A DNA stretch of 64,000 nucleotides from a virus (taxonomy: Duplodnaviria; Heunggongvirae; Uroviricota; Caudoviricetes), in IMG/VR virus record IMGVR_UViG_2706794662_000007; one strand, 5' to 3'. Position 1 is the stretch's first letter. Every line of letters starts with the position of its first letter. Positions 6,655 to 45,195 of this stretch are shown piece by piece. Made by a program: the position numbers and the translations under genes. Below the pieces are notes generated by a model. The model had not been told where the DNA came from and made no database searches. It saw only the letters and a program-made list of their open reading frames with translations.

Positions 6655-7248
6655 ATGAAACGTTCGTTACTTCTTGCTTGTATATACCTCTCGTCATTTT
6701 CCGCCAATGCGTTGTCAGATATCGTCTCCGACATGCAAAAAACGTACAGCATGTATACTTCTGAAGACGTACTAAAATACGAATCACGAGGTCTGATTCA
6801 ACCAGTCTGGTTCAGATTCTCAGATAACGCAGAAGAAACAATACTTAATGCAGGAAAAGAAAGATTACGGTTGCAAATTAACGGAACCGCTGTACCAGAA
6901 AACGTTAATGTAAGCTCTGACGAAGCCATGAAGCCATCTGGAATTGTTTTGGAAGTTCAAGACGGCACACTTTACTGTGATGAAATGGCTACAACAGGTT
7001 GCCAAGTAAACATTAGGGTTGGCAATGAAGAGCCTATCGTTACTTACGCCAAGGCTGAAGGGAATACAAGTGGAAAGGTATTGTTTATCGATGAAAATAC
7101 CTCAAAACGTATCGTTCGTGACATACAGAAAACAGCGAACTCTAAATCCGTCGATAAAAAAATCTATGTTGAGGTTCCCTTCTTTGTCGTTGGTAACAAA
7201 GAATTTAAATTTGGGTTGCTGAAAACACCTCTAAGAGTATCAGAATGA
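6655..7248 (+). CDS. secreted protein with cleavable signal peptide (hypothetical)
   Basis: N-terminus MKRSLLLACIYLSSFSANA; in AT-rich island; stop overlaps next start (ATGA). Confidence 0.5.
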   Translation: MKRSLLLACIYLSSFSANALSDIVSDMQKTYSMYTSEDVLKYESRGLIQPVWFRFSDNAEETILNAGKERLRLQINGTAVPENVNVSSDEAMKPSGIVLEVQDGTLYCDEMATTGCQVNIRVGNEEPIVTYAKAEGNTSGKVLFIDENTSKRIVRDIQKTANSKSVDKKIYVEVPFFVVGNKEFKFGLLKTPLRVSE

Positions 7249-7766
7249 GAACATTGGACATCACCTACGGCATACCGGCTGAAGTATGGCCGCGAGACTA
7301 CGAACATGCTGAACGTACCTTGCTCTTCTGGCGGAGTGCAAAATTTCCTGTAAGAGTCACTCTCGAAGACGGCCAAGTGTTTTGCATGTATGTCTACGGG
7401 CTATTGAGCGCAAGAAATAAGCTGAACCTCACACCAGATCCGCTTAGCAACACAAATCGTATAAGGCTCCCTCTTGAGCGCATTAGCACAATTGAGTCGG
7501 GCATAGAAGAGGTTGACACTTCATTCACAGGTCGACTAACGCTAAACAATGAACAGATGGTTAATCAGCCATCACGTCGTGACTTTTTTAAGATATGTCG
7601 TCAGGCTTACCAAAACGGCAAATCTATAAGGGTCTACATGGCAGACGGTCGCGAAATTGAGGGAACGTCAGATGGCGTTGACGCCTGTCTAGTCACACTT
7701 AAGTTGGAAGACGGTAGAAAAATACTTATTTTCTTCGATTGGGTTGAACGAATCCTTCCGTTTTAA
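7245..7766 (+). CDS. hypothetical cytoplasmic protein coupled to secreted protein
   Basis: 173 aa ORF overlapping upstream stop. Confidence 0.5.
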   Translation: MRTLDITYGIPAEVWPRDYEHAERTLLFWRSAKFPVRVTLEDGQVFCMYVYGLLSARNKLNLTPDPLSNTNRIRLPLERISTIESGIEEVDTSFTGRLTLNNEQMVNQPSRRDFFKICRQAYQNGKSIRVYMADGREIEGTSDGVDACLVTLKLEDGRKILIFFDWVERILPF

Positions 7767-7988: not shown

Positions 7989-8063
7989 GAACGCATCAGG
8001 AACGAGTGCAAAACACTTTCTTTCTTGAGTTAAATTTTAATATTTATACTAAGGAATAAAATC

Positions 8064-8714
8064 ATGGCTAACATTATCATTTCTAAAAAGTCCATCATTG
8101 AAGCTGCATCTATTGTATCCGACGAACTGCGCGAAAAAGCAGATCTGGCAACTCAAACATATAACGAACATTATAAAAATGGTACGCACACTAAAGCAGA
8201 CAAAGCAAATATGCAAGCTGCGACCACTAAACTTGCTTACTTCATCAACAACGTCGTAAACGCTGTAGAAGACGAAAAATTATGCTCTGTTTTCTACTAT
8301 GCGATTAAAGCAAGCAAACAAGCGCCAGAAGTATTTTTTCGTGACGCTATGACTAATAGTTATTCACTGGAAAAACTGGTTTATCTGGTTAAATCAATTA
8401 AAGCTGGAAAATGTGTTTATTCCGTCGCTGATATGTCTGGATCTCGTGTATTCGCTTTAATCGATATGATTAACGACGAGATCGACACGTTCACGAATGG
8501 CGCTGTTTTCGATTTAATGAATGAAGCCAAAAAAGCGTGTGAAATTAAATTGGACGCTGGCTATACTCAAGCTAACCAGCTAATCAATCTTTGCGAACGT
8601 CTCGGACTTGTTGAGAAAGTCAAAGGAATGGGAAGCGCCAAAGCTGGTACACAGCAATATCGCTTTATCAAGAATGATTTCTACAATTATCTAGCTGACG
8701 CTTTCAAAGCGTAA
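8064..8714 (+). CDS. hypothetical protein (AT-rich island)
   Basis: 216 aa ORF, low GC codon usage, AAGGA ribosome-binding site. Confidence 0.5.
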   Translation: MANIIISKKSIIEAASIVSDELREKADLATQTYNEHYKNGTHTKADKANMQAATTKLAYFINNVVNAVEDEKLCSVFYYAIKASKQAPEVFFRDAMTNSYSLEKLVYLVKSIKAGKCVYSVADMSGSRVFALIDMINDEIDTFTNGAVFDLMNEAKKACEIKLDAGYTQANQLINLCERLGLVEKVKGMGSAKAGTQQYRFIKNDFYNYLADAFKA

Positions 8715-8763
8715 TTAATGGAATCAAGCGCCCACTATGGGCGCTTTAAAGGAGCTTTAAAAA

Positions 8764-8967
8764 ATGGTCAGCTATGACAAGATCCGCGCGGAATATCGCG
8801 CAAAGTATCGCGCTTATAAACTAGAATTAATCAATGATTTAATCGCGCAACGCGACCAATTAAATTTTACGTTTTCTGATTTGCTTAACAGCAAACGAGA
8901 TTGCAAGCGTAAACGTGAATACTTACGTTTAAGCGCATTAATCGGAAAACTTCATAATTCTATTTAA
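8764..8967 (+). CDS. hypothetical small basic protein
   Basis: 67 aa ORF with AGGAG ribosome-binding site. Confidence 0.4.
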   Translation: MVSYDKIRAEYRAKYRAYKLELINDLIAQRDQLNFTFSDLLNSKRDCKRKREYLRLSALIGKLHNSI

Positions 8968-8987
8968 TTTTTTTAAGGAGCTTAATC

Positions 8988-9215
8988 ATGGTTATTTTCA
9001 TCTCTGGCGTAAATATCAATAATCATACTCTTGTTTATGATATTGCTGGTTTAGCTGGATATGCTCTAAGTTCTGAAGTGGTTGATGAAACAACGTTTAA
9101 AATAAACATCAATGACGTAGAACATAGAGCGCGCGCAGGAATCAATGAAGCAGATGTTACTTTAATGCTTCAAGAATTTTTAAACGCTGGTTTTAATATT
9201 CGCTTAGAAAAATAA
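8988..9215 (+). CDS. hypothetical small protein
   Basis: 75 aa ORF with AAGGAG ribosome-binding site; followed by strong terminator. Confidence 0.4.
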   Translation: MVIFISGVNINNHTLVYDIAGLAGYALSSEVVDETTFKININDVEHRARAGINEADVTLMLQEFLNAGFNIRLEK

Positions 9216-9222
9216 AAACAAT

Positions 9223-9247
9223 AGCGCCCATAGTGGGCGCTTTTTTC
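9223..9247 (+). terminator. rho-independent terminator
   Basis: agcgcccatagtgggcgct stem followed by tttttt. Confidence 0.6.
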
Positions 9248-9579
9248 GTTTCCAATACTCCCACCATAACGCGCCAATGATGGCGCGTTTTTTATTGTCT
9301 TTGACTCACTCCAACAACATAAAAATAAGCGCCAAAATAACGCCATAGACGCGCTTTTATATCCTTGCCAGTACATACCCATTACTTAACACATTAACGC
9401 GCTTAAAACGCGTTATATTGCGCTATAGCGCATAGTTAATCATTGGCTTTTAGTCTTGCTATGTGATCCGCGTTTATTTGTCGGCGCGGATCGGCATTTT
9501 GTTTTGTTCCGTATCCGCTCGCGTATTATGTGCGCGTGATTTTTCACATAATCACACCACTTAATCACGTATGCGATTA

Positions 9580-9843
9580 NNNNNNNNNNNNNNNNNNNNN
9601 NNNNNNNNNNNNNNNNNNNNNNNNNNNNNNNNNNNNNNNNNNNNNNNNNNNNNNNNNNNNNNNNNNNNNNNNNNNNNNNNNNNNNNNNNNNNNNNNNNNN
9701 NNNNNNNNNNNNNNNNNNNNNNNNNNNNNNNNNNNNNNNNNNNNNNNNNNNNNNNNNNNNNNNNNNNNNNNNNNNNNNNNNNNNNNNNNNNNNNNNNNNN
9801 NNNNNNNNNNNNNNNNNNNNNNNNNNNNNNNNNNNNNNNNNNN
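9580..9843. other. N-run (masked or unresolved sequence)
   Basis: 264 consecutive n. Confidence 1.
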
Positions 9844-10324
9844 ACACGCCATCAAGGATGTGGATGCGGTTGCTTGCGTATACATTCAGCATAAAGTTAG
9901 CGCAAAACAGTTTCCATGTATCAACGCCAGCGGTATACGTAATGTTTTTGCATTTAATTGCATTGTTGGCGATCCGCATCCCCTGCGATACTGCTTCATC
10001 GTCGGAAAATTTGAACGACGATTGAGTTTTAATCCAGACAGAAATCTGCGTAGCGAACTCAATCAGCTTGGACTGGCAGAATCGCCCGGAGCGCACCGGA
10101 AAGACGAACGTTCCGAATCCAGAATTTACCACATACGCTTTCTCAAATACCCGCGAGTAACGACGATTGCCAATGATGTCGCGTGCAATAATGCATTTTT
10201 CTTGTGCTGACAGTTCTACCGTCTCATTGTCGCGCCATGCACCAAGTACTCGTTTTTCAATGTCAGAGAACGTTACAGCGATATTGCCATGTGCGGGTGC
10301 GTTTACAGTAGCGATAAAATTCAT
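9844..10324 (-). CDS. hypothetical protein, 3' end lost in N-run
   Basis: ORF starts MNFIATVNAPAHG at 10324; motif A at 10343-10360 upstream; true stop unknown. Confidence 0.4.
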
Positions 10325-34562: not shown

Positions 34563-35207
34563 CTAATGAACGGTCACTCGACCACAGAACCGGTTTTCTA
34601 TCTTTTCTACAGCGTTATCTAGCATTCTCATCACTGATCTGGCTCTTGCTTCAACCGTGCGATATCGGTTGGAAACGACGAAGGTTTGCAGATCCCCCCT
34701 TTGCGGATGCAGGTGAATTTTTGTCAGTTCCCCGCACATCAACGCATCAATACGAGCGACATACAGACGGTCTAATGATGCTCGTTGTGATCGCAAGTAA
34801 TCTCGCTCTGAGAGAGCGACTCCCGGGCGTAGGCCAGCAATGGCGTTAAAGTTTGAAATAGCAGTTTTGTGGCAAAACTTTTCGATATCGAGGGCTAACT
34901 CAATACATCGATCTTCATTGGTATGGCCGACCAAATCCAACGTGTAGGCCATAACATCAGCAGGTGTGCGATCGATAACAAAGCCTTCAACACCACGCGT
35001 AAGTAGCTCTATATGCTTTGCGATTTCCATTTGAATCTGAAGCCGCTCATATAGAGGCATAGACTCACCTACTCGAACACCGAGTCGGCTCATCAAACTT
35101 CCGACACCAGCATCCACGTAAGGGATTCCGTAATGTTTGTCGATATATTTTGCCAGGGTTGTTTTCCCACTGCCCTGAGCACCAGTGATCCCAATCCGGT
35201 AATCCAT
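34563..35207 (-). CDS. P-loop nucleotide kinase-like protein
   Basis: Walker A GITGAQGSGKTT; sits within nucleotide-metabolism cluster. Confidence 0.5.
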   Translation of the reverse strand: MDYRIGITGAQGSGKTTLAKYIDKHYGIPYVDAGVGSLMSRLGVRVGESMPLYERLQIQMEIAKHIELLTRGVEGFVIDRTPADVMAYTLDLVGHTNEDRCIELALDIEKFCHKTAISNFNAIAGLRPGVALSERDYLRSQRASLDRLYVARIDALMCGELTKIHLHPQRGDLQTFVVSNRYRTVEARARSVMRMLDNAVEKIENRFCGRVTVH

Positions 35208-35683
35208 TACGACCTTCTGTATACGATCTGCGAAAAGCCAGGCTCTTCCTCGCTGGCTCGTTGGGTAAAAACTGTTTCAACAGGCACAAAGCCTAAATTA
35301 CGCATCATGCTTGCCGGGAAGAATGCATCGGCGTTTGGCACATCAACGCCGATGTGGGAGAGCCAAATCTCTTCAACATGCGGCATGAATAGCGAGTAAA
35401 TTTGTTCCCCGCCAATCACCCACACAGGCTCTGGTAATCGCAACACATCATCCACACCAGCAGGGTAGAATCCATTTGGTACAAAGCCATGAGAGCGCGT
35501 CAAAACGAGGTTATGACGCTCTGGAAGAGGGCGTTTGAGACTTTCCATCGTTTTACGCCCCATAACGACAGTGGCGTTTTTGGTGAGTCTCTTAAATAGC
35601 TTCAGATCGGTAGAACAACGCCAGGGCAGTTCGTTCGCTATGCCGATCTCATAGTTACGGCCAACAGCAGCTATCATCTTCAT
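35207..35683 (-). CDS. dihydrofolate reductase
   Basis: IAAVGRNYEIG...LPW...VVMGRKT...LPER...VIGG matches DHFR motifs. Confidence 0.85.
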   Translation of the reverse strand: MKMIAAVGRNYEIGIANELPWRCSTDLKLFKRLTKNATVVMGRKTMESLKRPLPERHNLVLTRSHGFVPNGFYPAGVDDVLRLPEPVWVIGGEQIYSLFMPHVEEIWLSHIGVDVPNADAFFPASMMRNLGFVPVETVFTQRASEEEPGFSQIVYRRS

Positions 35684-36093
35684 TTGCTCACCTCATAGAT
35701 GACCGGTCTATGATGAGAGTCAGCTAAAGCGGCACGGAGTCGAGGATCGTGCACCAGCGCAGCGATAAGCAGATCGCCTTTATGCTCCGCTAATGTGCGC
35801 TTAATATGCTTCTCATAACTGGTGCCATTCGGTACGAGATGAAGCCAGTCGTAATCAACGCCAAAATCTTTCAGCCATCGTTTAGTGGGCGCTTCAAGAG
35901 TTTCAGAGCGGCTACTGATAAGCACCACTTCAGCCCCTGAGCGAGCAAAACCACGCAACATACGGCTGGTGGGGAAAATGAGTTCATCACCGGCAATGAG
36001 CTGGCCTGCATCCGTGTCAGGTACAGATTTACGATGGCTGGTATTTGCCAGCACACCTTCAATTTCGCATAAGACATACATACCTCTTGCCAT
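35680..36093 (-). CDS. HAD-like (5'(3')-deoxyribonucleotidase-like) protein with non-canonical motif I
   Basis: MYVLCEIEGVLANT aligns to the HAD motif hhhDxDGVLAD but with C and E at the aspartate positions; start ATG 4 nt after thyA stop. Confidence 0.4.
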   Translation of the reverse strand: MARGMYVLCEIEGVLANTSHRKSVPDTDAGQLIAGDELIFPTSRMLRGFARSGAEVVLISSRSETLEAPTKRWLKDFGVDYDWLHLVPNGTSYEKHIKRTLAEHKGDLLIAALVHDPRLRAALADSHHRPVIYEVSK

Positions 36094-36094
36094 A

Positions 36095-37198
36095 TCACAC
36101 CGCCACTGGAACCTTGATCCACGGTAGAGGGTCATAGCCAAGAATCAGAATATCGTCCCATTTGAAATCATCCAGCTCAGACCATTCATGAGGGAAAATA
36201 ACGACCGGATCTGAATGCTCTGGAGCCTGTCGTTTCATTAGCTCACACACACCTTCCATGTGGTTGTTGTACAAATGCACGTCAAAGCCAAAATGCACAA
36301 ATGCACCGGCCATGTGACCCGTAATCTTCGCGAGAAAATGAGTGAGAATGCCATAGCCAGCAATATTGAATGGCATACCAACAAAAGTGTCTACGCTACG
36401 CTGTACGAGGCAGGAGTTGAGGATGCGTTTGGGGATTCCAAGTTCATCCAGTTCAGTTTCAGTAACACTGCCGTCCATCTCCAGATCGTATAGCATCTTG
36501 GTGTAGATAGACTCATAACCGAAGCGACTGTGTTGAAGACCAATGTCAGTTGCCATCGTTAAACGGGTTTCAAAATCAAGCTCACGACTCCACAAAGAGA
36601 AGACAAAGTGGCAAGGTGGCAGTTTCATATCCTCAAGCTCGCCTACGTTCCATGCGTTAAGCATGATGCGACGATCGGTAGGGTTCGTGCGCAGTGTGTC
36701 GACAATACGCTGTAGCTGATCGATTTCACGGGACAGCACTACGCGATCTTCACTGATACCCAGGTATCCCTCGACTTTGTACCCGCGTTCACGGAAAGTA
36801 GCGATCTTGCTCAGATATTCACTATGGCTCACGATGCGGGTATCTTCCCATCGACGCCACTGCTTACCGTAAACCGGCCCCAAATCGCCATTCTCATCGG
36901 CCCATGCATCCCAAATCTTAACGCCGTTATCCTTAAGAAATTGGATGTTGCCCGTGCCTTTCAGATACCACTCAAGTTCGACAAGCAGTGGCTTAAGATT
37001 TACCGCCTTTCCAGAAATAAGCGGCACAGTCCCACCAGTAAGCATGTAGTAAGAGGGAACGTAGCAGGTGCTTAAAGTACCAGTGCCTGTGCGATCATCA
37101 GTCTGCACGCCGCTTTTAAGCACCGTCTCAATAACTTTTGCATACGATGCGTTTGTTACCTGACCGTTCGTATGCTCACGATTCAAAAGGAGTGACAT
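36095..37198 (-). CDS. thyA: thymidylate synthase family protein (ThyA-like, with insertions)
   Basis: DRTGTGT, GPVYGKQWR, RRIMLNAWN, LPPCH, QRSVD, PFNIA, DVHLY, C-terminal IKVPVAV; 367 aa with an insertion of about 50 aa after the PCH motif. Confidence 0.85.
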   Translation of the reverse strand: MSLLLNREHTNGQVTNASYAKVIETVLKSGVQTDDRTGTGTLSTCYVPSYYMLTGGTVPLISGKAVNLKPLLVELEWYLKGTGNIQFLKDNGVKIWDAWADENGDLGPVYGKQWRRWEDTRIVSHSEYLSKIATFRERGYKVEGYLGISEDRVVLSREIDQLQRIVDTLRTNPTDRRIMLNAWNVGELEDMKLPPCHFVFSLWSRELDFETRLTMATDIGLQHSRFGYESIYTKMLYDLEMDGSVTETELDELGIPKRILNSCLVQRSVDTFVGMPFNIAGYGILTHFLAKITGHMAGAFVHFGFDVHLYNNHMEGVCELMKRQAPEHSDPVVIFPHEWSELDDFKWDDILILGYDPLPWIKVPVAV

Positions 37199-37279
37199 AA
37201 AACCTCACGAAGATAAGTAATCAATTATTTATCACGTGAGTTTACATTCATTGATAAAACAAGACCAGATAGATAAAAA

Positions 37280-37298
37280 ATGGTGGCCATAGGCCACC
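37280..37298 (-). terminator. terminator hairpin
   Basis: tggtggccataggccacca flanked by A/T runs. Confidence 0.5.
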
Positions 37299-37365
37299 AA
37301 AAAGAATAGTCGTTCCAGAGTTTTATACGCAAATCAAATATACATTAGTAGATAATCACCTACAA

Positions 37366-38235
37366 TTATTTTTTGATCATTCCGTACATTGCTGAGGCTT
37401 TAGCTTGCTCAACAAAGGAGGATAAATCGACATCACTATAGGTTGGAGACTTCAGAATCTTTCCATCGGAAATTCGAAAACCGATCATCTTATCGGTGCC
37501 ATCAGCATGGCGAAATCCCAGGTCTGAAGAGTCGTATTTGCAGTTGGCCACAGCCTGGCGACGTTCCTCTACATCAGCAGGCCATAATTTTGTCATGTTA
37601 GACCGATGAATTTCGCCAACCAGCTCGACTACATTGATACCGAGGAAATCAGCCAGTCGATAGGTCATCATGCACGCCACATAGATTTTGTTCATGACAC
37701 GGCGCAGTTCCTGAATCAGCTCAGAATCCTTAACAGTCTTGTTCTCAAGTTTATCTGCCAGCTCTTCGAGCATACATGACGCCTCACGAGCTTCCTGAAA
37801 TGGCATTGCCATATCATCGAAAACAGTGTTACCGGGCACAAAAATTGTCTGCATAAAGCGATCAATGCTCTGTTCCTGCGTGTAATAGGTCATGCCGGTA
37901 GAAATACCACCTTTGATGGCGACCATCGTACCAACACCAACGTATAAAAAGTCGGCCATTGCATCCAGCAGTTGCTCAATATCCCCATTCATTGCAGCTG
38001 GAATACCTTCCACTACAGCTTCTTCATGAATCAGGCTTGCACGGAGACGAAGCAGCTCTGGTGTCGGCATAACGCGTCTCGGATGCTGGAAGAGTTCATG
38101 AAACTGATCGACCATCTTGTAAATACTTTCAGTAGCTACACCATGACCTTCATGCAACTCATATGGTTCTGGCTTAAATCCAATGAGACGATCGGTGGCA
38201 AGTTTCAGGTGGTCAGTCAGTTTGGTAAAGTTCAT
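37366..38235 (-). CDS. hypothetical protein (possibly nucleotide metabolism)
   Basis: Start set to MNFTKLTDH; helical, with several ExxE-type acidic pairs; function not recognised. Confidence 0.45.
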   Translation of the reverse strand: MNFTKLTDHLKLATDRLIGFKPEPYELHEGHGVATESIYKMVDQFHELFQHPRRVMPTPELLRLRASLIHEEAVVEGIPAAMNGDIEQLLDAMADFLYVGVGTMVAIKGGISTGMTYYTQEQSIDRFMQTIFVPGNTVFDDMAMPFQEAREASCMLEELADKLENKTVKDSELIQELRRVMNKIYVACMMTYRLADFLGINVVELVGEIHRSNMTKLWPADVEERRQAVANCKYDSSDLGFRHADGTDKMIGFRISDGKILKSPTYSDVDLSSFVEQAKASAMYGMIKK

Positions 38236-38312: not shown

Positions 38313-39455
38313 TCACAGGTCTGCAAACTGGCTTAGAGAAGCCTTGTCCACGGTAGAATCGATCTGACCTACCAGATATGTGCTTTGCTCTGCCTCTTGT
38401 GGTGCAATTTGCAGTGTGTCGGTTAACAACCACTTGTTCATCCAGACCAGCGGATCGGTGGTAACCTCTGGAAATAAAGCCTTCAGGCCAAGACGATTCA
38501 TAGCCAGATTGGTGCGGTATTTTACATAGGTCTTCAAAATATCCGCGTTTAAACCAATCATCGAACCGTCTTTGAAGAGATACTCGGCCCAGTTCATTTC
38601 TTGTTCGGCGACTGATTTCATGGTGTCGTAAATGACGTTTTCTTCATCAGCAGCAATCTCTTTCCACAATAAACCTTCGCGACCGGTACGCATGAAGCGG
38701 ATCATGCGTTCAGTTCCTTCGCAATGCAGAGCTTCATCACGGGCAATAAAGCGCATAATTTTGGTGTTACCCTCAAGCAACTTCCGTTCGCCAAAGGCAA
38801 ACGTACATGCAAAACTTACATAGAAACGGATCGCCTCAAGCGCATTAATGGACACCAACGTGCGGAAAAGCTGACGGTGCAAAGGATATGGCTCCCAGCC
38901 ATATTCATTTACGTACAGACGCTCAAATTCCTTCTCGCCTAACGACTGGCGCTCGCAGGTCATCCCATAAAGCCTGTCATATTCAGCAGAGATACTGATC
39001 GCTCGGTTGATGATTTCTTCATCCGTAACAATACCGTCAAAAACAATGCTCGGATCGTCCACCATGCCACGAATAATGTGGGTGTAGCTGCGGCTATGGA
39101 TAGTCTCAGAGAAAGACCATGTTTCAACCCACGTTTCCAGTTCAGGAATAGAGATAAGCGGCAGCAGCGTTGCATTTGGGCTACGTCCCTGAACTGAATC
39201 GAGTAACGTTTGATAACGGAGATTGCTCAGAAAAATGTGACGTTCGTGGTCCCGCAGCTTCGTGTTGAAGTCGATACGATCGCTCGAAATATCAACTTCT
39301 TCCGGCCGCCAGAAGAAAGACAATTGACGTTCAATCAACTTTTCAAAATCACGGTATTTTTGCTGATCGTAACGTGCCACGTTGACAGATTGTCCGAGGA
39401 ACATAGGCTCTTTGGTTGCATCATTAGCACCCAAACGGAACGTTGAATATGACAT
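38313..39455 (-). CDS. nrdB: ribonucleotide reductase class Ia beta subunit
   Basis: Near-colinear with E. coli NrdB as I recall it ([38 protein letters not shown]-terminal YLVGQIDS...); start set to MSYSTFRLG. Confidence 0.95.
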
Positions 39456-39536
39456 GTGTTTTTCCTTTTGCTTTTTGATGTGTTTAAACAAGTTGTTATC
39501 CTATTTGTTTAAACAAGGCTTACAAATCAAAGAGAA

Positions 39537-39555
39537 GGTGGGGATACACCCCACC
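39537..39555 (-). terminator. terminator hairpin after nrdA
   Basis: ggtggggatacaccccacc followed by T-rich run on minus strand. Confidence 0.55.
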
Positions 39556-39560
39556 ATATG

Positions 39561-41876
39561 TCAGATTTTGCAGGCTCCGTCGCACTCATCTTCTGGCTCG
39601 ACGGCTACAGCTTGCGTCAGTGGATTCTGCGGTTCGTCGTCATCACGCTTTCCTGCCCCATCTCTGGTGTTGTGGTAGTAAAGCGTTTTAACTCCCATCT
39701 TGTAGGCGAGAAGCAAATCTGACAGTAGCGTCATCATTGGGACTTTATCGCCTTCAAAGCGAGAAGGGTCATAGTTGGTATTGGCCGAAATAGCCTGGTC
39801 AAAGAACTTCTGGATGATCGCCACCTTTGTCAGATAGCCGCGGTTGTCCGGCATATCCCACAGGTATTCATACTGTTCCTTCAGTTTTTCAATCTCAGGC
39901 ACGACCATCTTAACGATGCCGTCCTTAGAAGATTTCACCGACACCGGTCCACGAGGCGGTTCGATGCCGTTTGTGGAATTAGTGATCTGGCTGGAAGTCT
40001 CGCATGGCATTTGTGCCGTCAGTGTGGAGTTGCGAAGACCGTATTTTGCAATACGTTCACGCAGTTCTTCCCACGGCATCTTTAACTCAAAGTTGGTTTC
40101 GCCACTTTCGTCTAATGAAGAACGGTAATGGTCGATCGGCAACTGACCAATTGCGTACTTGGTCTGCTCAAACCAGTCACACTCACCTTTTGCTTCAGCA
40201 AGTTGGCAGCTGGCATCAAGAAGGTAATACTGGATAGCTTCGAACGTTTCATGCACCAGTTTATTACCAGCGGTATCAGAATAACGAATGCCATTCTTTG
40301 CCAGGTAATAAGCAAAGTTGGTTACACCGATCCCCAGGCTACGACGAGCTTTGGCAGGCACTTCGGCTGCCTCCATCGGATAGTCTTGATAATCCAGTAA
40401 CGAATCCAGTGCAGCAACGGCATAGAACGCCACCTCTTTAAGAGACTCCAGTGAACGGATGGCTCCGAGGTTAAAAGCGGATAAAGTGCATAGCGCGATC
40501 TCACCGTTCGGGTCGTCGGTAAATGCCAGTGGACGGGTAGGTAGGGTGATCTCCATACACAGGTTTGACTGGCGGACAGGTGCAAGAGCAGGAATGAAAG
40601 CGCCATGCTCATTAATATGATCGACGTTCGCAATATAAATTCGGCCCGTGGACGCTCGTTCCTGCATCAGAGATGAGAACAGCTCAATGGCAGGTACTGA
40701 CTTCTTGCGAATTGAATCATCGGCTTCGTATTTATGGTACAGCTTTTCAAACAGCTCCTGGTCTGTGAAGAAGGCTTCGTACATATCAGGCACATCATGC
40801 GGGCTGAACAGAGTGATGTTCTCGCTTCTGACGAGTCGACGGTACATTAGACGGTTACTCATGACGCCGTAATCAAGATGGCGAACGCGGTTTTCATCAA
40901 TACCACGGTTATTTTTCACCACCAGCAGACTTTCAACTTCAAGATGCCAGATCGGGTAAAACGCTGTTGCTGCGCCACCACGAACACCACCTTGCGAACA
41001 AGATTTAACAGCCGTCTGGAAATGCTTCAGGAATGGAATAACTCCGGTATGGGTGGCTTCACCATTGCGGATCTCGCTGCCCAGCGCACGGATACGGCCA
41101 AAACCAATACCAATTCCAGCACGACGTGAAACGTAGTCGATAATTGCGGCTGAAGCTGCACTAATCCCTTTCAGACTATCGCCAGACTCAATCAGCACAC
41201 AACTGGAGAACTGACGGGTTGGAGTACGGACGCCGGCCATGATTGGTGTGGGCAGAGACAGTTTGAACGTACTTGTAACGTCATAGAAACCTTTGACCAT
41301 CTCCATACGTGTTTTGCCAGCGCAGTCGTCTTCCCAATTCTGGAACAGACACATGCCTACCAGCATATAGATATGTTGCGGCCCCTCATGAATCTCACCA
41401 GTAACACGGTTTTGAACGAGGTATTTGCTTTGCAACTGCACCGTAGCTGCATAGCCAAAAAGATCGTCACGTTTCGGCTTAATGTAATTACCGAGTTCTT
41501 CGATCTCTTCAAACGAATAATGTGTCAGCAAATCCTTGTCATAAACGCCCTTGTTAACGTTCTTGACAATGTGTTGGTAGAAGTTCGGATAGTCGTAACG
41601 ACCGAAGGCATCTTTGCGGATTTTAAAAATGTTCAGGCGGGCAGCCACCTGTGAGTAATTTGGTGCTTCTGGTGAGATCAAATCAGCGGCAGATTTAACC
41701 AAAGCCTCATGCAACTGGCTGGTGGTCATCCCATCAAAAATGCTGGCCGCAGCTCCCATTGCTACAGCGGATGCGCTTACACCACGAATGCCTTCTACGC
41801 CATACATTACGACGCGGTTGTATTTTTCTTCGGATAACGGCTCTGTTTGGCCGTTACGTTTTACGATGCTTATCAT
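39561..41876 (-). CDS. nrdA: ribonucleotide reductase class Ia alpha subunit
   Basis: 771 aa; SLPTPIMAGVRTPTRQFSSCVLIE, NLCMEI, C-terminal ...TLYYHNTRDGA...DECDGACKI with CxxC tail. Confidence 0.95.
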   Translation of the reverse strand: MISIVKRNGQTEPLSEEKYNRVVMYGVEGIRGVSASAVAMGAAASIFDGMTTSQLHEALVKSAADLISPEAPNYSQVAARLNIFKIRKDAFGRYDYPNFYQHIVKNVNKGVYDKDLLTHYSFEEIEELGNYIKPKRDDLFGYAATVQLQSKYLVQNRVTGEIHEGPQHIYMLVGMCLFQNWEDDCAGKTRMEMVKGFYDVTSTFKLSLPTPIMAGVRTPTRQFSSCVLIESGDSLKGISAASAAIIDYVSRRAGIGIGFGRIRALGSEIRNGEATHTGVIPFLKHFQTAVKSCSQGGVRGGAATAFYPIWHLEVESLLVVKNNRGIDENRVRHLDYGVMSNRLMYRRLVRSENITLFSPHDVPDMYEAFFTDQELFEKLYHKYEADDSIRKKSVPAIELFSSLMQERASTGRIYIANVDHINEHGAFIPALAPVRQSNLCMEITLPTRPLAFTDDPNGEIALCTLSAFNLGAIRSLESLKEVAFYAVAALDSLLDYQDYPMEAAEVPAKARRSLGIGVTNFAYYLAKNGIRYSDTAGNKLVHETFEAIQYYLLDASCQLAEAKGECDWFEQTKYAIGQLPIDHYRSSLDESGETNFELKMPWEELRERIAKYGLRNSTLTAQMPCETSSQITNSTNGIEPPRGPVSVKSSKDGIVKMVVPEIEKLKEQYEYLWDMPDNRGYLTKVAIIQKFFDQAISANTNYDPSRFEGDKVPMMTLLSDLLLAYKMGVKTLYYHNTRDGAGKRDDDEPQNPLTQAVAVEPEDECDGACKI

Positions 41877-42528: not shown

Positions 42529-43272
42529 TTACCATGTTCCCCATATAGGGTTTTCCAATAATCTCGCCTCCAACGAATTGGTTACTATTGCCGTTTGCAA
42601 CGTTGGTTGGGGAGAGTTTGCAAAGTCTGAATACTCATTTTCCTGCGTGACACGTTTATCTACGGCATGTTTAACGCCACTTGCTATGAAATGACGCATG
42701 ATGCCCAACAGCCTCCGACTGTCTGCACTATCGTTTGCTAAAACATGCGGGAGCTGAAGTTCGATTTCTACCATTTCTCCATACTTACCAACAAACTGTA
42801 GTTTGTCCGCACTGTACTTTTTATCCCTCCTTTGGATAAGGAAACCAGTAAAAGCATCACCTGGCGATGCCAAACTATCCACCCGCTTATTGGCAAGTCG
42901 AATAAGGTTGGTGAAAGCCATACAGTGATGCGCACCCATTCCCCCAAAGAACCCTTCGCTATTAATGTTAAGATCTTCATTTTCATGGGATGCAATAAAC
43001 CCAGGCCCGACGTTGGGAAGATATCCCCCCTCAACAAAAGGATTAATCAGGATCGGCGCAATACATCCAGGTGGTAGTGATTTCAAACTTTGCATCAATG
43101 GCGTCTCGGATATTAGACCAAGCAACGCGGCAAATTGTACTCCGTCAATATTGTTGCTGCCCCACAGAATACGTGGAGCCGCACCATTGGAAGTATGCCC
43201 ATTGATCAGTTTTATCGACTGCATCACTGCAAATACCTGCAAAAACTGCGAGCGGCTTAATTTAAACGACAT
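42529..43272 (-). CDS. hypothetical protein
   Basis: 247 aa ORF. Confidence 0.5.
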   Translation of the reverse strand: MSFKLSRSQFLQVFAVMQSIKLINGHTSNGAAPRILWGSNNIDGVQFAALLGLISETPLMQSLKSLPPGCIAPILINPFVEGGYLPNVGPGFIASHENEDLNINSEGFFGGMGAHHCMAFTNLIRLANKRVDSLASPGDAFTGFLIQRRDKKYSADKLQFVGKYGEMVEIELQLPHVLANDSADSRRLLGIMRHFIASGVKHAVDKRVTQENEYSDFANSPQPTLQTAIVTNSLEARLLENPIWGTW

Positions 43273-45195
43273 AGCTGCGCCCCTCTTTAACTTCCAGCGT
43301 AATAGTTTCCCGGAACCATGACTTCATCTCTTTATGGGAGATAATCAGCACAGTACCTCGCTCGCGAGCTTTGGACTCCAGAATACCCATGAGGCGTTCA
43401 AGACCGGCTGTATCGAGTGCATCGTCAATTTCGTCGCCGATAAACAAATCGATGTTTTTACTCGCCCGGTTACTAACCAGATCCTGCAATGCCAAAGAAC
43501 ACGCAATGCGAACCTTCCGCTTCTCACCACCAGAGAGGGTCTGGAACGACTTACTTGAACCTTTCTTCTGCACACTAATGTTGAATTTGTCGCGATACTC
43601 ACCTTTTTTGGTGACATCCATCGTCGACCACTCAGCAGTAATATTCCCGTCAGACAACGTATTGAGATACTCGGCAGTGCGTGTATTCAGGAAAGGCGTA
43701 ACAGACGTCAAAATATGAGAACGCACCCCGGCAGGAGAGTAGACCTGACGAGCTTTTTCCAATAGCAACGTTTGTTCCTGAATAGCCTTCAACTCATCTT
43801 TTAAGGACTTGAAGGTAGACTTACTGGATACCAGGTTATCTTCGTGTCTGGCGATAAGAGCAATAAACGGATTAATCTCTTTTGATATACGATCGACCTC
43901 AGTACGAGCACGAGTCACAAGAGACTCAATAGCAACAATCTCCTTCTCACGATGACGCAAAGATGAGAGTTGTTTCGTAAGCTCTTCAATCCGGGCAATG
44001 ATAGCCGTTACATCAGGTGTCGTTTTAACAAGGGCAGACTCAATGCTTAACGCTTTCTCAAGATTCGTTTTGTGTTTAGCCATTGCCTCTGCAAGTGTCT
44101 TCGCCTGACCAATTTCCTGACGTGCTTGTTCAATGAAATTCTCCTTCACCGTTGATAGATCTTCTTCGCAGTAGGCTTTGCCACAAGTAGGGCATGGTGA
44201 TCCCACTTTAGTACCAACCTCTTCTGCTTTGGTCTTAAAATTACGCGCGCGGTTCATTGCATCAGCCTGACTATTTTCTGTAGCTTTGATGCTTGCCCGA
44301 ATATCAGTTATCGCACCACGAACNNNNNNNNNNNNNNNNNNNNNNNNNNNNNNNNNNNNNNNNNNNNNNNNNNNNNNNNNNNNNNNNNNNNNNNNNNNNN
44401 NNNNNNNNNNNNNNNNNNNNNNNNNNNNNNNNNNNNNNNNNNNNNNNNNNNNNNNNNNNNNNNNNNNNNNNNNNNNNNNNNNNNNNNNNNNNNNNNNNNN
44501 NNNNNNNNNNNNNNNNNNNNNNNNNNNNNNNNNNNNNNNNNNNNNNNNNNNNNNNNNNNNNNNNNNNNNNNNNNNNNNNNNNNNNNGATTGTCGACTCCA
44601 ATTTGGTTTTAACCACATCCATACGTGCGGCAGCTGCATTAGCTCGCTCACGAGCAATAGCGTAGGCGCGTGTCAGTCTGTCAACGCCAGCGGCTTCTTC
44701 TACGATGGTTTTGAGGTTTTTGTCGGACATTCCAGGTAAATCTGGCATAGCTTCTTGGCTCGCATAGATGGAAGCCATGAAAACCTCTTTAGATGCACCG
44801 ATCAGACGCTCGACGAACTCTTGCGTCAGCGCATCTTTGCCTTTCGTCATATCGCCGTCTTCACCACGAACGATAAGCCGATTTTTGAACTCTTTGTGTT
44901 TACGGTGACGAATGATCGCATATCTCTTGCCTTCATCCTCGATGGTTACTGCAACACGACAGTTCTTTTCATGGTCGGTAGACAACACATCGTCACCCTT
45001 CACACCATGAGCTGTTTCGCCATAAAGACACCACATCAGGCTATTCATTAGCGTTGACTTTCCAGAGCCATTACTTGATGCGGAACTATCATCACTATTA
45101 ACACCCTGAATGAGCACTAAACCACGCTGATCTAACTCGACCTCCGCGCTGGCGATAGCCATAAAATTCTCAACCTGGAGCTTTAAAAACTTCAT
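43262..45195 (-). CDS. SbcC/Rad50-like ATPase (gp46-like), interrupted by N-run 44324-44586
   Basis: N-terminal Walker A GSNGSGKST; C-terminal signature LSGGEKRK and Walker B LFIGDEID; coiled-coil middle. Confidence 0.8.
44324..44586. other. N-run
   Basis: 263 n. Confidence 1.

What the first reader, a model, noticed from the sequence alone, without database searches (positions are those of the whole stretch)
36095..37198. ThyA-family enzyme with an insertion of about 50 aa after the catalytic Cys motif
All core thymidylate synthase motifs are present, but the protein is 367 aa and the FQFYV folate-contact segment reads FVFSLW, followed by a long insertion. ThyA homologs in phages include pyrimidine hydroxymethylases, so altered substrate or cofactor specificity (modified bases) is possible though unproven.
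Basis: partly seen in the sequence, partly recalled or inferred. Interest (0 to 1): 0.4.

Follow-up and report, generated by a model that had tools for sequence, protein, structure and literature searches.

The report
Phage-plasmid thymidylate synthase with two insertions
This is an ordinary thymidylate synthase gene of an SSU5/pHCM2-type phage-plasmid that carries two extra, well-folded surface segments, and nothing in its active site or its neighbours suggests that it makes modified DNA bases.

Summary
The 367-aa ORF at 36095-37198 (-) is real. It is a classical ThyA thymidylate synthase of an SSU5/pHCM2-type phage-plasmid, 100% identical to Escherichia phage CMS-2020a and annotated 'thymidylate synthase' in 372 plasmid records.

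The ~50-aa insertion exists (aa 204-261, net +51).

- **Fold:** AlphaFold models both insertions as folded (mean pLDDT 95).
- **ins1:** homologous to a segment of the solved Burkholderia ThyA 3V8H.
- **ins2:** three helices with invariant Arg212 and Pro256. It occurs in phage ThyAs (SSU5-like elements, jumbo phages) and in no solved TS.
- **Selection:** both are under purifying selection.

All residues for dUMP binding, uracil specificity (Asn) and folate binding/hydride transfer are kept: Trp80, Trp83, His147 and the C-terminal tail. The real or presumed hydroxymethylases (T4 gp42, SPO1 gp29, M6 gp58) lack these and are about 20% identical.

The gene sits in a tight operon with dfrA51, a DHFR family shown experimentally to be functional. 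Only a DHF-producing synthase needs a DHFR. No base-modification genes are annotated in the element. 'FVFSLW' is most likely a dimer-interface strand, not a folate contact.

Verdict: an ordinary thymidylate synthase with lineage-specific decorations; low interest.

The parts
36095..37198 (-). thyA: 367-aa classical thymidylate synthase (stop codon included)
   Evidence: ORF; PF00303 E=2.4e-79; TIGR03284 222.7 bits, above the 108 cut-off; core TM-score 0.94 to E. coli TS.
37203..37206 (-). GAGG ribosome-binding site, 4 nt before the ATG
   Evidence: Sequence read. The start position is shared with Cyrano (GTG) and SSU5 (TTG).
37148..37198 (-). N-terminal extension (aa 1-17, about 15 more than E. 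coli ThyA); the least confident part of the model
   Evidence: Alignments; mean pLDDT 64 for the first 10 residues.
36731..36841 (-). Insertion 1 (aa 120-156, net +34). It extends the W101-D110 hairpin into a small beta/alpha flap.
   Evidence: Gap; modelled strands 117-124, 141-146 and 152-159 and helices 125-130 and 132-137 at pLDDT 95-98. Homologous, with the same length, to residues ~120-156 of B. thailandensis ThyA 3V8H. 3 nonsynonymous vs 14 synonymous differences to SSU5.
36611..36613 (-). Codon of the catalytic nucleophile Cys196 (E. coli C146) in the P-C-H motif
   Evidence: Invariant in alignments A1 and A2.
36590..36610 (-). H-F-V-F-S-L-W (aa 197-203), the strand after the Cys (E. 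coli H147-Y153). It is recoded in the SSU5-like clade only.
   Evidence: Clade-specific changes Q151S, F152L and Y153W, together with changes on neighbouring sheet strands (F30C, G31F/Y, Q33P, R35, F36Y, G204F/C).
36416..36589 (-). Insertion 2 (aa 204-261, net +51). A three-helix unit placed in the hairpin between the two central strands.
   Evidence: Translation; helices 209-225, 231-242 and 247-253 at pLDDT 96-98. R212 and P256 are invariant, and R258, D251 and L260 nearly so, in 50 insertion-bearing ThyAs. 16.5 nonsynonymous vs 33.5 synonymous differences to SSU5. No solved TS covers it (TM-score normalised to the query at most 0.73).
36098..36118 (-). C-terminal tail I-K-V-P-V-A-V (E. coli I-K-A-P-V-A-I), which closes the folate site in TS
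   Evidence: Present in the window protein; absent from T4 gp42 and SPO1 gp29.
35680..36093 (-). 137-aa HAD-like ORF, starting 1 nt after the thyA stop. Operon partner of unknown function.
   Evidence: Weak PF25109 match; PHROG 5387, unknown function; conserved position in SSU5, Cyrano and PhiR41_1.
35207..35683 (-). dfrA51-type dihydrofolate reductase, overlapping the HAD-like ORF by 4 nt
   Evidence: PF00186 E=2.9e-34; NCBIfam DfrA51 334.1 bits, above the 322 cut-off; SSU5 dfrA51 shown to confer trimethoprim resistance (PMC12217456).
34563..35207 (-). 214-aa P-loop NMP-kinase-like ORF, overlapping the dfrA51 stop by 1 nt. Probably a dTMP/dNMP kinase.
   Evidence: AAA_28 and other NMP-kinase-type Pfam matches; PHROG 2107 'thymidylate kinase' E=2.9e-10; shares only the P-loop with the M6 5-hmU DNA kinase.
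37281..37299 (-). Terminator-like GC hairpin followed by a T run, between the mazG-like gene and thyA
   Evidence: sequence.
37366..38235 (-). MazG-like NTP pyrophosphohydrolase. The start is uncertain: 705 nt in the PhiR41_1 annotation, 870 nt in SSU5 and Cyrano.
   Evidence: PF01503 E=2.2e-8; PHROG 671; annotations.
38313..41876 (-). nrdB (38313-39455) and nrdA (39561-41876), class Ia ribonucleotide reductase
   Evidence: PF00268 E=5.5e-46; annotations.

Best explanation
The ORF encodes a catalytically conventional, homodimeric ThyA thymidylate synthase. It makes dTMP and dihydrofolate from dUMP and 5,10-methylene-THF.

It is the first gene of a translationally coupled unit: thyA, a HAD-like ORF, dfrA51 and an NMP-kinase-like ORF. 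This unit lies downstream of nrdAB and a mazG-like gene, in the replication and nucleotide-metabolism block of an SSU5/pHCM2-type phage-plasmid. The module lets the element run its own, trimethoprim-insensitive thymidylate cycle.

The extra 103 residues are lineage-specific structural additions on the enzyme's periphery:
- ins1 is a beta/alpha flap also present in Burkholderia-type ThyA.
- ins2 is an acidic three-helix unit inserted at the tip of the central beta-hairpin, at the far end of the strand from Cys196.

Both are kept by selection.

What is shown: family membership, conservation of every catalytic and ligand-binding residue, a confident fold for the insertions, purifying selection, operon structure, and the phage-restricted distribution of ins2.

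What is inferred: the enzyme activity itself, and the idea that the insertions stabilise or modify the dimer or surface rather than the chemistry.
For: **Family membership**
- PF00303 E=2.4e-79.
- TIGR03284 equivalog 222.7 bits, above the 108 cut-off.
- PHROG 160 'thymidylate synthase' E=6.8e-96.

**Catalytic and binding residues**
- Invariant R21, E58, W80, W83, Y94, R126, R127, C146, H147, R166, S167, D169, N177, H207 and Y209 equivalents, plus the C-terminal tail.

**Operon and context**
- 1-nt gap, then 4-nt and 1-nt overlaps, linking thyA, the HAD-like ORF, the DHFR and the kinase-like ORF. The arrangement is conserved in SSU5, Cyrano and PhiR41_1.
- The DHFR meets the DfrA51 model, and dfrA51 is experimentally functional.
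- The TS-needs-DHFR logic is stated in PMC4528723.
- thyA, dhfR and nrdAB have been recognised in pHCM2 since 2002 (PMC12928451, citing Kidgell 2002).

**Insertions**
- Model pLDDT 95.3.
- ins1: 3 nonsynonymous vs 14 synonymous differences to SSU5. ins2: 16.5 vs 33.5.
- ins1 is homologous to 3V8H.
- ins2 is shared with jumbo-phage ThyAs (BFVD query-normalised TM-score 0.83-0.87; alignment; invariant R212 and P256).
Against: - No enzymology or complementation exists for this protein or any close relative that I could find.
- The SSU5-like clade has changed about 45 positions that are at least 90% conserved in canonical ThyAs. These include H51N and S54P (folate polyglutamate region), L172V, and several sheet residues.
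- The neighbours (MazG-like pyrophosphohydrolase, HAD-like protein, NMP-kinase-like protein) superficially resemble the dTTPase/dTMPase/kinase set of hmU phages described in PMC8989533.
- The role of the insertions is not established. I could not inspect the model's coordinates to measure their distance from the active site or the dimer axis.
Confidence: 0.86

Rival explanations
1. One reading: the enlarged ThyA homologue is a pyrimidine hydroxymethylase (dUMP or dCMP to the 5-hydroxymethyl nucleotide), or has otherwise altered substrate or cofactor use, and it feeds a modified-base pathway.
For: - Some phage ThyA homologues are hydroxymethylases, and several are long: SPO1 gp29 is 383 aa and M6 gp58 is 351 aa.
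- The operon contains a MazG-like pyrophosphohydrolase, a HAD-like protein and an NMP-kinase-like protein. These could in principle mirror the dTTPase, dTMPase and hm-dUMP kinase of hmU phages.
- The clade carries substitutions near the folate tail site (H51N, S54P).
Against: - Only 19-22% identity to SPO1 gp29 (E=0.024), M6 gp58 (E=2e-4) and T4 gp42, against 44-50% core identity to canonical ThyA.
- The extra length of SPO1 gp29 is C-terminal, not at the ins1 or ins2 sites.
- W80, W83, H147, Q165, P-F-N177 and the C-terminal tail are kept. gp42 and gp29 lack them, and Asn177 is not Asp.
- The gene is coupled to a functional DHFR family. A THF-releasing hydroxymethylase does not need one.
- The kinase-like ORF gives no HMUDK or aGPT-Pplase Pfam match and shares only the P-loop with the M6 5-hmU DNA kinase.
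- No dCMP deaminase, glycosyltransferase or hypermodification genes are annotated in Cyrano.
- The HAD-like protein has Glu where HAD phosphatases have the Asp nucleophile, so even its phosphatase activity is doubtful.
Confidence: 0.03
2. The protein is an active TS, and the insertions and the recoded sheet have a selected extra role. Either they prevent mixed dimers with the host's 47-50% identical ThyA, or they dock the enzyme to other element-encoded nucleotide or replication proteins, as in a T4-like dNTP-synthesis complex.
For: - Both insertions are folded and under purifying selection.
- R212 and P256 are invariant across ThyAs that are only ~37-48% identical overall.
- ins2 was found only in phage contexts, in all five sampled outside the SSU5 family.
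- ins2 of 30 or more residues never occurs without an enlarged ins1 (labels), which is consistent with the two packing together.
- In the SSU5-like clade the sheet strands equivalent to human interface residues F59, Q62 and Y202 are recoded together (6R2E is titled 'interface variant Q62R').
Against: - No dimer model, interaction data or coordinates were available, so the geometry is inferred from memory of TS structures.
- Jumbo-phage ThyAs have ins2 but keep the canonical sheet residues, so insertion and sheet recoding are not one package.
- ins2 is acidic and evolves faster than the core (dN 0.133 vs 0.009-0.088), as expected of a tolerated surface decoration.
- TS insertions in other lineages (L. 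casei, eukaryotes; from my own knowledge) have no known separate function.
Confidence: 0.2
3. The gene is a decaying or non-catalytic ThyA homologue, a pseudoenzyme kept for a regulatory or structural role.
For: - The host already has ThyA, so catalysis might be dispensable.
- There are many clade-specific substitutions.
Against: - All catalytic residues are invariant across 30 SSU5-like sequences down to 46% identity.
- Purifying selection is strong in the core: 1 nonsynonymous vs 24 synonymous differences in aa 157-203.
- The ORF is intact in 370 plasmid records.
- It is coupled to a functional DHFR.
Confidence: 0.03

Closest known systems
E. coli ThyA (264 aa; PDB 1TYS, 2TSC and many others) and other minimal bacterial ThyAs
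   Same: Same fold (target-normalised TM-score 0.94). 44-50% identity over the 255 core positions. Identical catalytic, dUMP-binding and folate-binding residues and C-terminal tail.
   Different: The window protein has +15 at the N-terminus, +34 (ins1) and +51 (ins2). About 45 otherwise conserved positions are changed, many of them on the central sheet.
Burkholderia thailandensis ThyA, PDB 3V8H (NCBIfam PRK13821-type, ~323 aa)
   Different: 28% identity. The window protein scores 137.8 bits against the 576 cut-off of NF010393, so it is not a member. 3V8H has no three-helix ins2; from chain lengths I infer at most about 13 extra residues after the strand.
Jumbo-phage ThyAs: Erwinia phage EarlPhillipIV gp110 (342 aa), Pseudomonas phage 201phi2-1 ThyA B3FJL1 (457 aa), and metagenomic P0038-P0089
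   Same: Both insertions are at the same sites, with the shared S-R-E-L...E-R and D-x3-I-P-x-R-x-L boundary motifs. BFVD query-normalised TM-score is 0.83-0.87. The contexts are those of phages.
   Different: Only 36-43% identical overall. They keep the canonical sheet residues. No DHFR lies next to them in the loci examined. They do not resolve as one clade with the SSU5-like group in a core-only NJ tree.
T4-type td/frd pair (e.g. phage IME08 frd-td-nrdA)
   Same: A phage-encoded ThyA next to a DHFR and ribonucleotide reductase; the same pathway logic.
   Different: Td is 37% identical over aligned positions (A3), with different small insertions and neither ins1 nor ins2.
Pyrimidine hydroxymethylases: T4 gp42 (dCMP), SPO1 gp29 and M6 gp58 (dUMP)
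   Same: The ThyA superfamily fold, with the Cys nucleophile and the E58, Y94, R166, S167, D169, H207 and Y209 equivalents.
   Different: 19-22% identity. They lack W80/W83 (SPO1 gp29 lacks both, T4 gp42 lacks W83), H147, P-F-N177 (gp42 has Asp) and the C-terminal tail. No DHFR coupling is needed.
Lactobacillus casei TS with its 50-residue insert, and eukaryotic TS inserts (from my own knowledge, not tested here)
   Same: A precedent that large lineage-specific surface insertions are compatible with normal TS chemistry.
   Different: As I recall, the L. casei insert sits in the 'small domain' (near E. coli residue ~70-90), not at the ins2 hairpin.

Membership tests
Classical thymidylate synthase ThyA (EC 2.1.1.45) | Match to the family profile above curated cut-offs | tested here: met
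   PF00303 266.7 bits (cut-off 24.3). TIGR03284 equivalog 222.7 bits (cut-off 108.35).
Classical thymidylate synthase ThyA (EC 2.1.1.45) | Catalytic Cys in P-C-H, with His147 | tested here: met
   P195-C196-H197, invariant in 74 sequences.
Classical thymidylate synthase ThyA (EC 2.1.1.45) | dUMP phosphate-binding arginines (R21, R166, and R126'/R127' from the partner subunit) and S167 | tested here: met
   R36, R267, R176, R177 and S268 are invariant.
Classical thymidylate synthase ThyA (EC 2.1.1.45) | Asn177 (uracil, not cytosine, specificity), with H207 and Y209 | tested here: met
   P276-F277-N278, H308 and Y310.
Classical thymidylate synthase ThyA (EC 2.1.1.45) | Folate-binding and hydride-transfer set: E58, I79, W80, W83, Y94, L143, D169, G173, F176, and the C-terminal tail that closes the site | tested here: met
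   E74, I95, W96, W99, Y110, L193, D270, G274, F277 and the terminal I-K-V-P-V-A-V. L172 is Val; H51 and S54 are Asn and Pro.
Classical thymidylate synthase ThyA (EC 2.1.1.45) | TS fold | tested here: met
Classical thymidylate synthase ThyA (EC 2.1.1.45) | Activity: dUMP + CH2-THF gives dTMP + DHF; complements thyA | not testable with these tools
   No experiment found in the searchable literature. Indirect support comes from coupling to a functional DHFR family.
dCMP hydroxymethylase (T4 gp42 type) | Asp in place of Asn177; no H147; no W83; no TS C-terminal tail; close sequence relationship | tested here: not met
dUMP hydroxymethylase (SPO1 gp29 / M6 gp58 types) | Sequence relationship to the characterised or presumed enzymes; loss of the I-W-D-x-W folate segment and of H147; C-terminal extension instead of the TS tail | tested here: not met
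   BLASTP E=0.024 (19%) to gp29 and E=2e-4 (21%) to gp58. The window protein keeps IWDAW, His197 and the tail.
hmU / thymidine-hypermodification pathway | Companion genes: dCMP deaminase, dTTPase/dTMPase, 5-hmU DNA kinase, aGPT-Pplase (PMC8989533) | tested here: not met
   No HMUDK or aGPT-Pplase Pfam match in the operon's proteins. The kinase-like ORF shares only the P-loop with M6 gp54. None is annotated in the 108-kb relative Cyrano. The roles of the MazG-like and HAD-like ORFs are unresolved.
PRK13821-type long ThyA (Burkholderia, PDB 3V8H) | NCBIfam NF010393 above cut-off | tested here: not met
   137.8 bits vs cut-off 576. Only ins1 is shared.
SSU5/pHCM2-type phage-plasmid thyA | Near-identity and synteny (nrdA-nrdB-mazG-thyA-HAD-dfrA51-kinase) with SSU5, Cyrano and PhiR41_1; a monophyletic clade | tested here: met
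   100% (CMS-2020a), 99.8%, 98.5% and 77.7% nucleotide identity. Same gene order. Clade of 30 sequences with 100/100 bootstrap. Found in 372 plasmid records.

The most novel reading that the evidence does not exclude
ins1 plus ins2 form a phage-specific add-on domain of ThyA. In SSU5-like phage-plasmids it comes with a recoded dimer-interface sheet. Together these would make the element's enzyme an orthogonal homodimer that cannot mix with the host's ThyA, or would serve as a docking surface for element-encoded nucleotide or replication proteins. That would give a mobile element a private, trimethoprim-insensitive thymidylate cycle alongside DfrA51.
Probability: 0.2. Interest if true: 0.4.

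Novelty: already known. Interest (0 to 1): 0.14.

Why it matters
As a thymidylate synthase it is routine. The same protein is already annotated in hundreds of plasmid and phage records, and the thyA/dhfR/nrdAB set of pHCM2 was described in 2002.

Two modest points remain:
1. The gene is the upstream partner of dfrA51, a recently recognised trimethoprim-resistance DHFR carried by SSU5-type phage-plasmids. The operon supplies a complete thymidylate cycle that bypasses the drug's target, which is relevant to how these elements affect antifolate susceptibility.
2. The three-helix insertion at the central hairpin is a phage-restricted ThyA architecture. It has no solved structure and I found no description of it. 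It could be a handle for telling phage from host ThyA in metagenomes, or a small structural-biology question.

Neither point changes the functional call.

Tried and rejected
- **ins2 as a captured domain.** phmmer with ins2 alone (58 aa) against 1.84 billion representatives found only a fragment of the same protein and one 1063-aa repeat protein. The repeat units of that protein match by chance and are sequence-repetitive, so I rejected it as a homologue. ins2 has no detectable source outside ThyA.
- **Single origin of the insertions.** A core-only NJ tree with 100 bootstraps supported the SSU5-like clade (100/100). It did not unite all insertion-bearing ThyAs (0/100). Single origin versus repeated gain or loss is unresolved, and the shared boundary motifs argue for homology.
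- **AFDB50 fold search.** The library was not available.
- **Contact analysis.** Model coordinates are not exposed to scripts. I could not measure contacts between ins1, ins2, the active site and the dimer axis, and I could not model a dimer.
- **Literature.** Searches for a description of the insertion or for enzymology of the SSU5/pHCM2 or jumbo-phage ThyA found nothing specific.
- **Foreign DNA.** Composition gives no sign that ins2 is foreign: GC 0.45 against 0.48-0.52 in the rest of the gene.
- **Apparent SbcC-like pseudogene.** The split ORFs at 43262-45195 are caused by a run of N in the window.
Full report
**1. The observation**

The ORF listing shows an ATG-to-stop ORF of 367 aa at 36095-37198 on the minus strand. 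A GAGG lies 4 nt upstream of the ATG. Cyrano and SSU5 start at the same position with GTG and TTG.

Pfam gives Thymidylat_synt at E=2.4e-79. phmmer against all PDB sequences matches E. coli ThyA in three blocks: query 18-118 to Ec 3-102, query 156-203 to Ec 106-153, and query 261-367 to Ec 160-264.

- There is also a second insertion of net +34 at aa 120-156.
- There is an N-terminal extension of 15 residues.
- With +1 and +2 elsewhere, these account for all 103 residues beyond the 264 of E. coli ThyA.

**2. Where the window comes from**

The gene is 100% identical to Escherichia phage CMS-2020a. It is 99.8% identical to PhiR41_1, 98.5% to Cyrano (the pLF82 phage-plasmid) and 77.7% to Salmonella phage SSU5. 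It occurs in 372 PLSDB plasmids of Escherichia, Enterobacter, Salmonella, Citrobacter and others, annotated 'thymidylate synthase' in every full-length match listed. The window is therefore part of an SSU5/pHCM2-type phage-plasmid.

The gene order is nrdA, nrdB, mazG-like, thyA, a 137-aa HAD-like ORF, DHFR and a P-loop kinase-like ORF. It is the same in the window, PhiR41_1, SSU5 and Cyrano.

- thyA and the three following genes are separated by a 1-nt gap, then 4-nt and 1-nt overlaps.
- A terminator-like hairpin lies between the mazG-like gene and thyA.
- The presence of thyA, dhfR, nrdAB and rnhA on pHCM2 has been known since Kidgell et al. 2002, as cited in PMC12928451.

**3. Synthase or hydroxymethylase?**

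The protein exceeds the curated cut-off of the NCBIfam thymidylate synthase equivalog TIGR03284 (222.7 vs 108 bits). Its best PHROG is 160, 'thymidylate synthase' (E=6.8e-96). Over the 255 core positions it is 44-50% identical to canonical 264-aa ThyAs.

I fetched three comparators:
- the experimentally known dUMP hydroxymethylase of SPO1, gp29;
- the dCMP hydroxymethylase of T4, gp42;
- the ThyA homologue of the 5-hmdU-dependent phage M6, gp58.

These are 19% (E=0.024), 22% and 21% (E=2e-4) identical to the window protein.

In a joint alignment the window protein keeps I-W-D-x-W (E. coli W80, W83), His147, Gln165, P175-F176-Asn177 and the C-terminal I-K-x-P-V-A-V tail. gp42 and gp29 lack these, and gp42 has Asp at 177. 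The extra length of gp29 is C-terminal, not at the ins1 or ins2 sites.

**4. Context argues the same way**

The DHFR two genes downstream passes the NCBIfam model for DfrA51 (334 vs 322 bits). dfrA51 of SSU5 was cloned and shown to raise the trimethoprim MIC, and the purified protein bound the drug weakly (PMC12217456).

A synthase oxidises the folate to DHF and needs a DHFR. A hydroxymethylase releases THF and does not (PMC4528723).

The hmU pathway also needs a dCMP deaminase and dTTP/dTMP-removing enzymes, and for hypermodification a 5-hmU DNA kinase and aGPT-Pplases (PMC8989533).

- The operon's proteins give no Pfam match to those families.
- The kinase-like ORF shares only its P-loop with the M6 5-hmU DNA kinase. 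Its best PHROG function is thymidylate kinase.
- The full annotation of Cyrano lists no such genes, only an adenine methyltransferase.
- The MazG-like and HAD-like ORFs remain of unknown specificity.

**5. The insertions**

An AlphaFold2 model built on 74 sequences has mean pLDDT 95.3 and pTM 0.93. The insertions are as confident as the core.

*ins1* forms strands 117-124, 141-146 and 152-159 and two short helices.
- It is homologous, with the same length, to the corresponding segment of B. thailandensis ThyA (PDB 3V8H): RGY/RGF motif, E=3e-14 for the sub-query. All other solved TSs align only from aa 157 onward.

*ins2* forms three helices (209-225, 231-242, 247-253).
- No solved TS covers it. 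The query-normalised TM-score is 0.68 for E. coli TS and at most 0.73 overall.
- Predicted viral structures do cover more of the model: 0.87 for A0A1C3NFC4 and 0.83 for the ThyA of Pseudomonas phage 201phi2-1.
- In an alignment of 50 insertion-bearing ThyAs, R212 and P256 are invariant. L260 (49/50), R258 (45/50) and D251 (42/50) are nearly so.

*Distribution outside the SSU5 family.* Every insertion-bearing ThyA whose context I examined lies in a large phage genome or a phage-like contig. These are Erwinia phage EarlPhillipIV, P0042, P0046, P0089 and P0058.

*Selection.* Between the window and SSU5, ins1 has 3 nonsynonymous against 14 synonymous differences. ins2 has 16.5 against 33.5, with dN 0.133 compared with 0.009-0.088 in the core blocks. 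Both are constrained, ins2 less tightly.

*Origin.* ins2 alone finds no homologue outside this family among 1.84 billion representatives. Its base composition is unremarkable.

**6. The 'FVFSLW' strand**

This segment follows the catalytic Cys. It corresponds to E. coli H147-Y153, a strand of the central sheet that forms the dimer interface. That placement comes from my knowledge of TS structures. For the neighbouring strand, PDB 6R2E is titled 'interface variant Q62R', and human Q62 equals E. coli Q33.

The real folate contacts are conserved.

A comparison of 20 canonical, 24 intermediate and 30 SSU5-like sequences shows that the SSU5-like clade has recoded several sheet positions together. 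These are F30C/S, G31F/Y, Q33P, R35, F36Y, Q151S, F152L, Y153W, V154S and G204F/C. Jumbo-phage ThyAs with ins2 keep the canonical residues. The sheet recoding is therefore a clade feature, separate from the insertion.

The SSU5-like clade is monophyletic (100/100 bootstraps). The deeper relationships of insertion-bearing ThyAs are unresolved.

**7. Most likely mechanism**

- **Shown:** this is a ThyA with a complete synthase active site. It sits in an operon with a functional-type DHFR and next to ribonucleotide reductase, in a widespread phage-plasmid.
- **Inferred:** it methylates dUMP to dTMP, DfrA51 recycles the DHF, and the kinase-like protein phosphorylates the product. This gives the element its own thymidylate supply during replication, one that is insensitive to trimethoprim.
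- **Inferred:** the insertions are peripheral structural additions. ins2 sits at the tip of the hairpin at the far end of the strand that begins at Cys196. They are more likely to affect stability, the dimer edge or partner contacts than chemistry.

The idea that they, with the recoded sheet, insulate the enzyme from the host's ThyA or dock it to partners is the most novel reading not excluded. I give it about 0.2.

**8. Verdict**

- The family assignment is right.
- The suggestion of altered specificity or modified bases is not supported.
- The gene is already annotated and the gene set has long been known.
- The undescribed three-helix insertion is a lineage-specific decoration of a kind that thymidylate synthases are known to tolerate.
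- Interest is low.

Noticed in passing
window 35680-36093 (-): The 137-aa HAD-like ORF wedged between thyA and dfrA51 has C-E-I-E/D-G-V where HAD phosphatases have the D-x-D-x-T/V motif. The Glu at the nucleophile position is invariant in 12 homologues down to 42% identity. The family (PHROG 5387, unknown function) was retrieved almost only from ~100-kb Enterobacteriaceae plasmid-size contigs like this element. It may be an unusual or inactive HAD.
   Followed up: partly
window 35207-35683 (-): The DHFR passes NCBI's model for the trimethoprim-resistance enzyme DfrA51 (334 vs 322 bits). This phage-plasmid therefore carries a recognised resistance determinant inside its core nucleotide-metabolism operon, not on a transposon or integron.
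   Followed up: partly
window 44324-44586: A run of 263 N interrupts the SbcC-like gene (43262-45195, -). It makes the gene look like two ORFs. The flanks are 99.8-100% identical to the intact PhiR41_1 gene, so this is a masking artefact and not a pseudogene.
   Followed up: yes
window 36731-36841 (-), thyA insertion 1: ins1 is mosaic among close relatives. P0002 is 95% identical to the window protein in the core but only 51% in ins1, where it carries the allele seen in the more distant P0005. This suggests recombination within thyA between phage-plasmid lineages.
   Followed up: partly
window 7245-7766 (+): This ORF matches Pfam Flag1_repress (FljA-type repressor of phase-1 flagellin) at E=1.4e-68. 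It lies beside a GC dip to 33% at 8001-10000. A phage-plasmid-borne flagellin repressor could alter host flagellar expression. The neighbouring ORFs (6655-7248, 8064-8714, 9440-10324) have no Pfam match.
   Followed up: partly
window 37281-37299 (-): A terminator-like hairpin (TGGTGGCC-TAT-GGCCACCA followed by a T run) lies between the mazG-like gene and thyA. This suggests that thyA, the HAD-like ORF, dfrA51 and the kinase-like ORF form a separate transcription unit from nrdAB-mazG. The consensus scan found no sigma-70-like promoter in the 80 nt before thyA.
   Followed up: no
Cyrano record OV696614.1, loci L011 and L013: The closely related phage-plasmid is annotated with its own DNA polymerase III alpha, helicase, primase, ligase, RecA/UvsX-like, UvsW, UvsY and gp32-like proteins. 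It also has a methionyl-tRNA synthetase, three tRNAs, CobT/CobS-like proteins and several toxin-antitoxin pairs. This is an unusually self-sufficient replication and nucleotide toolkit for a temperate element.
   Followed up: no
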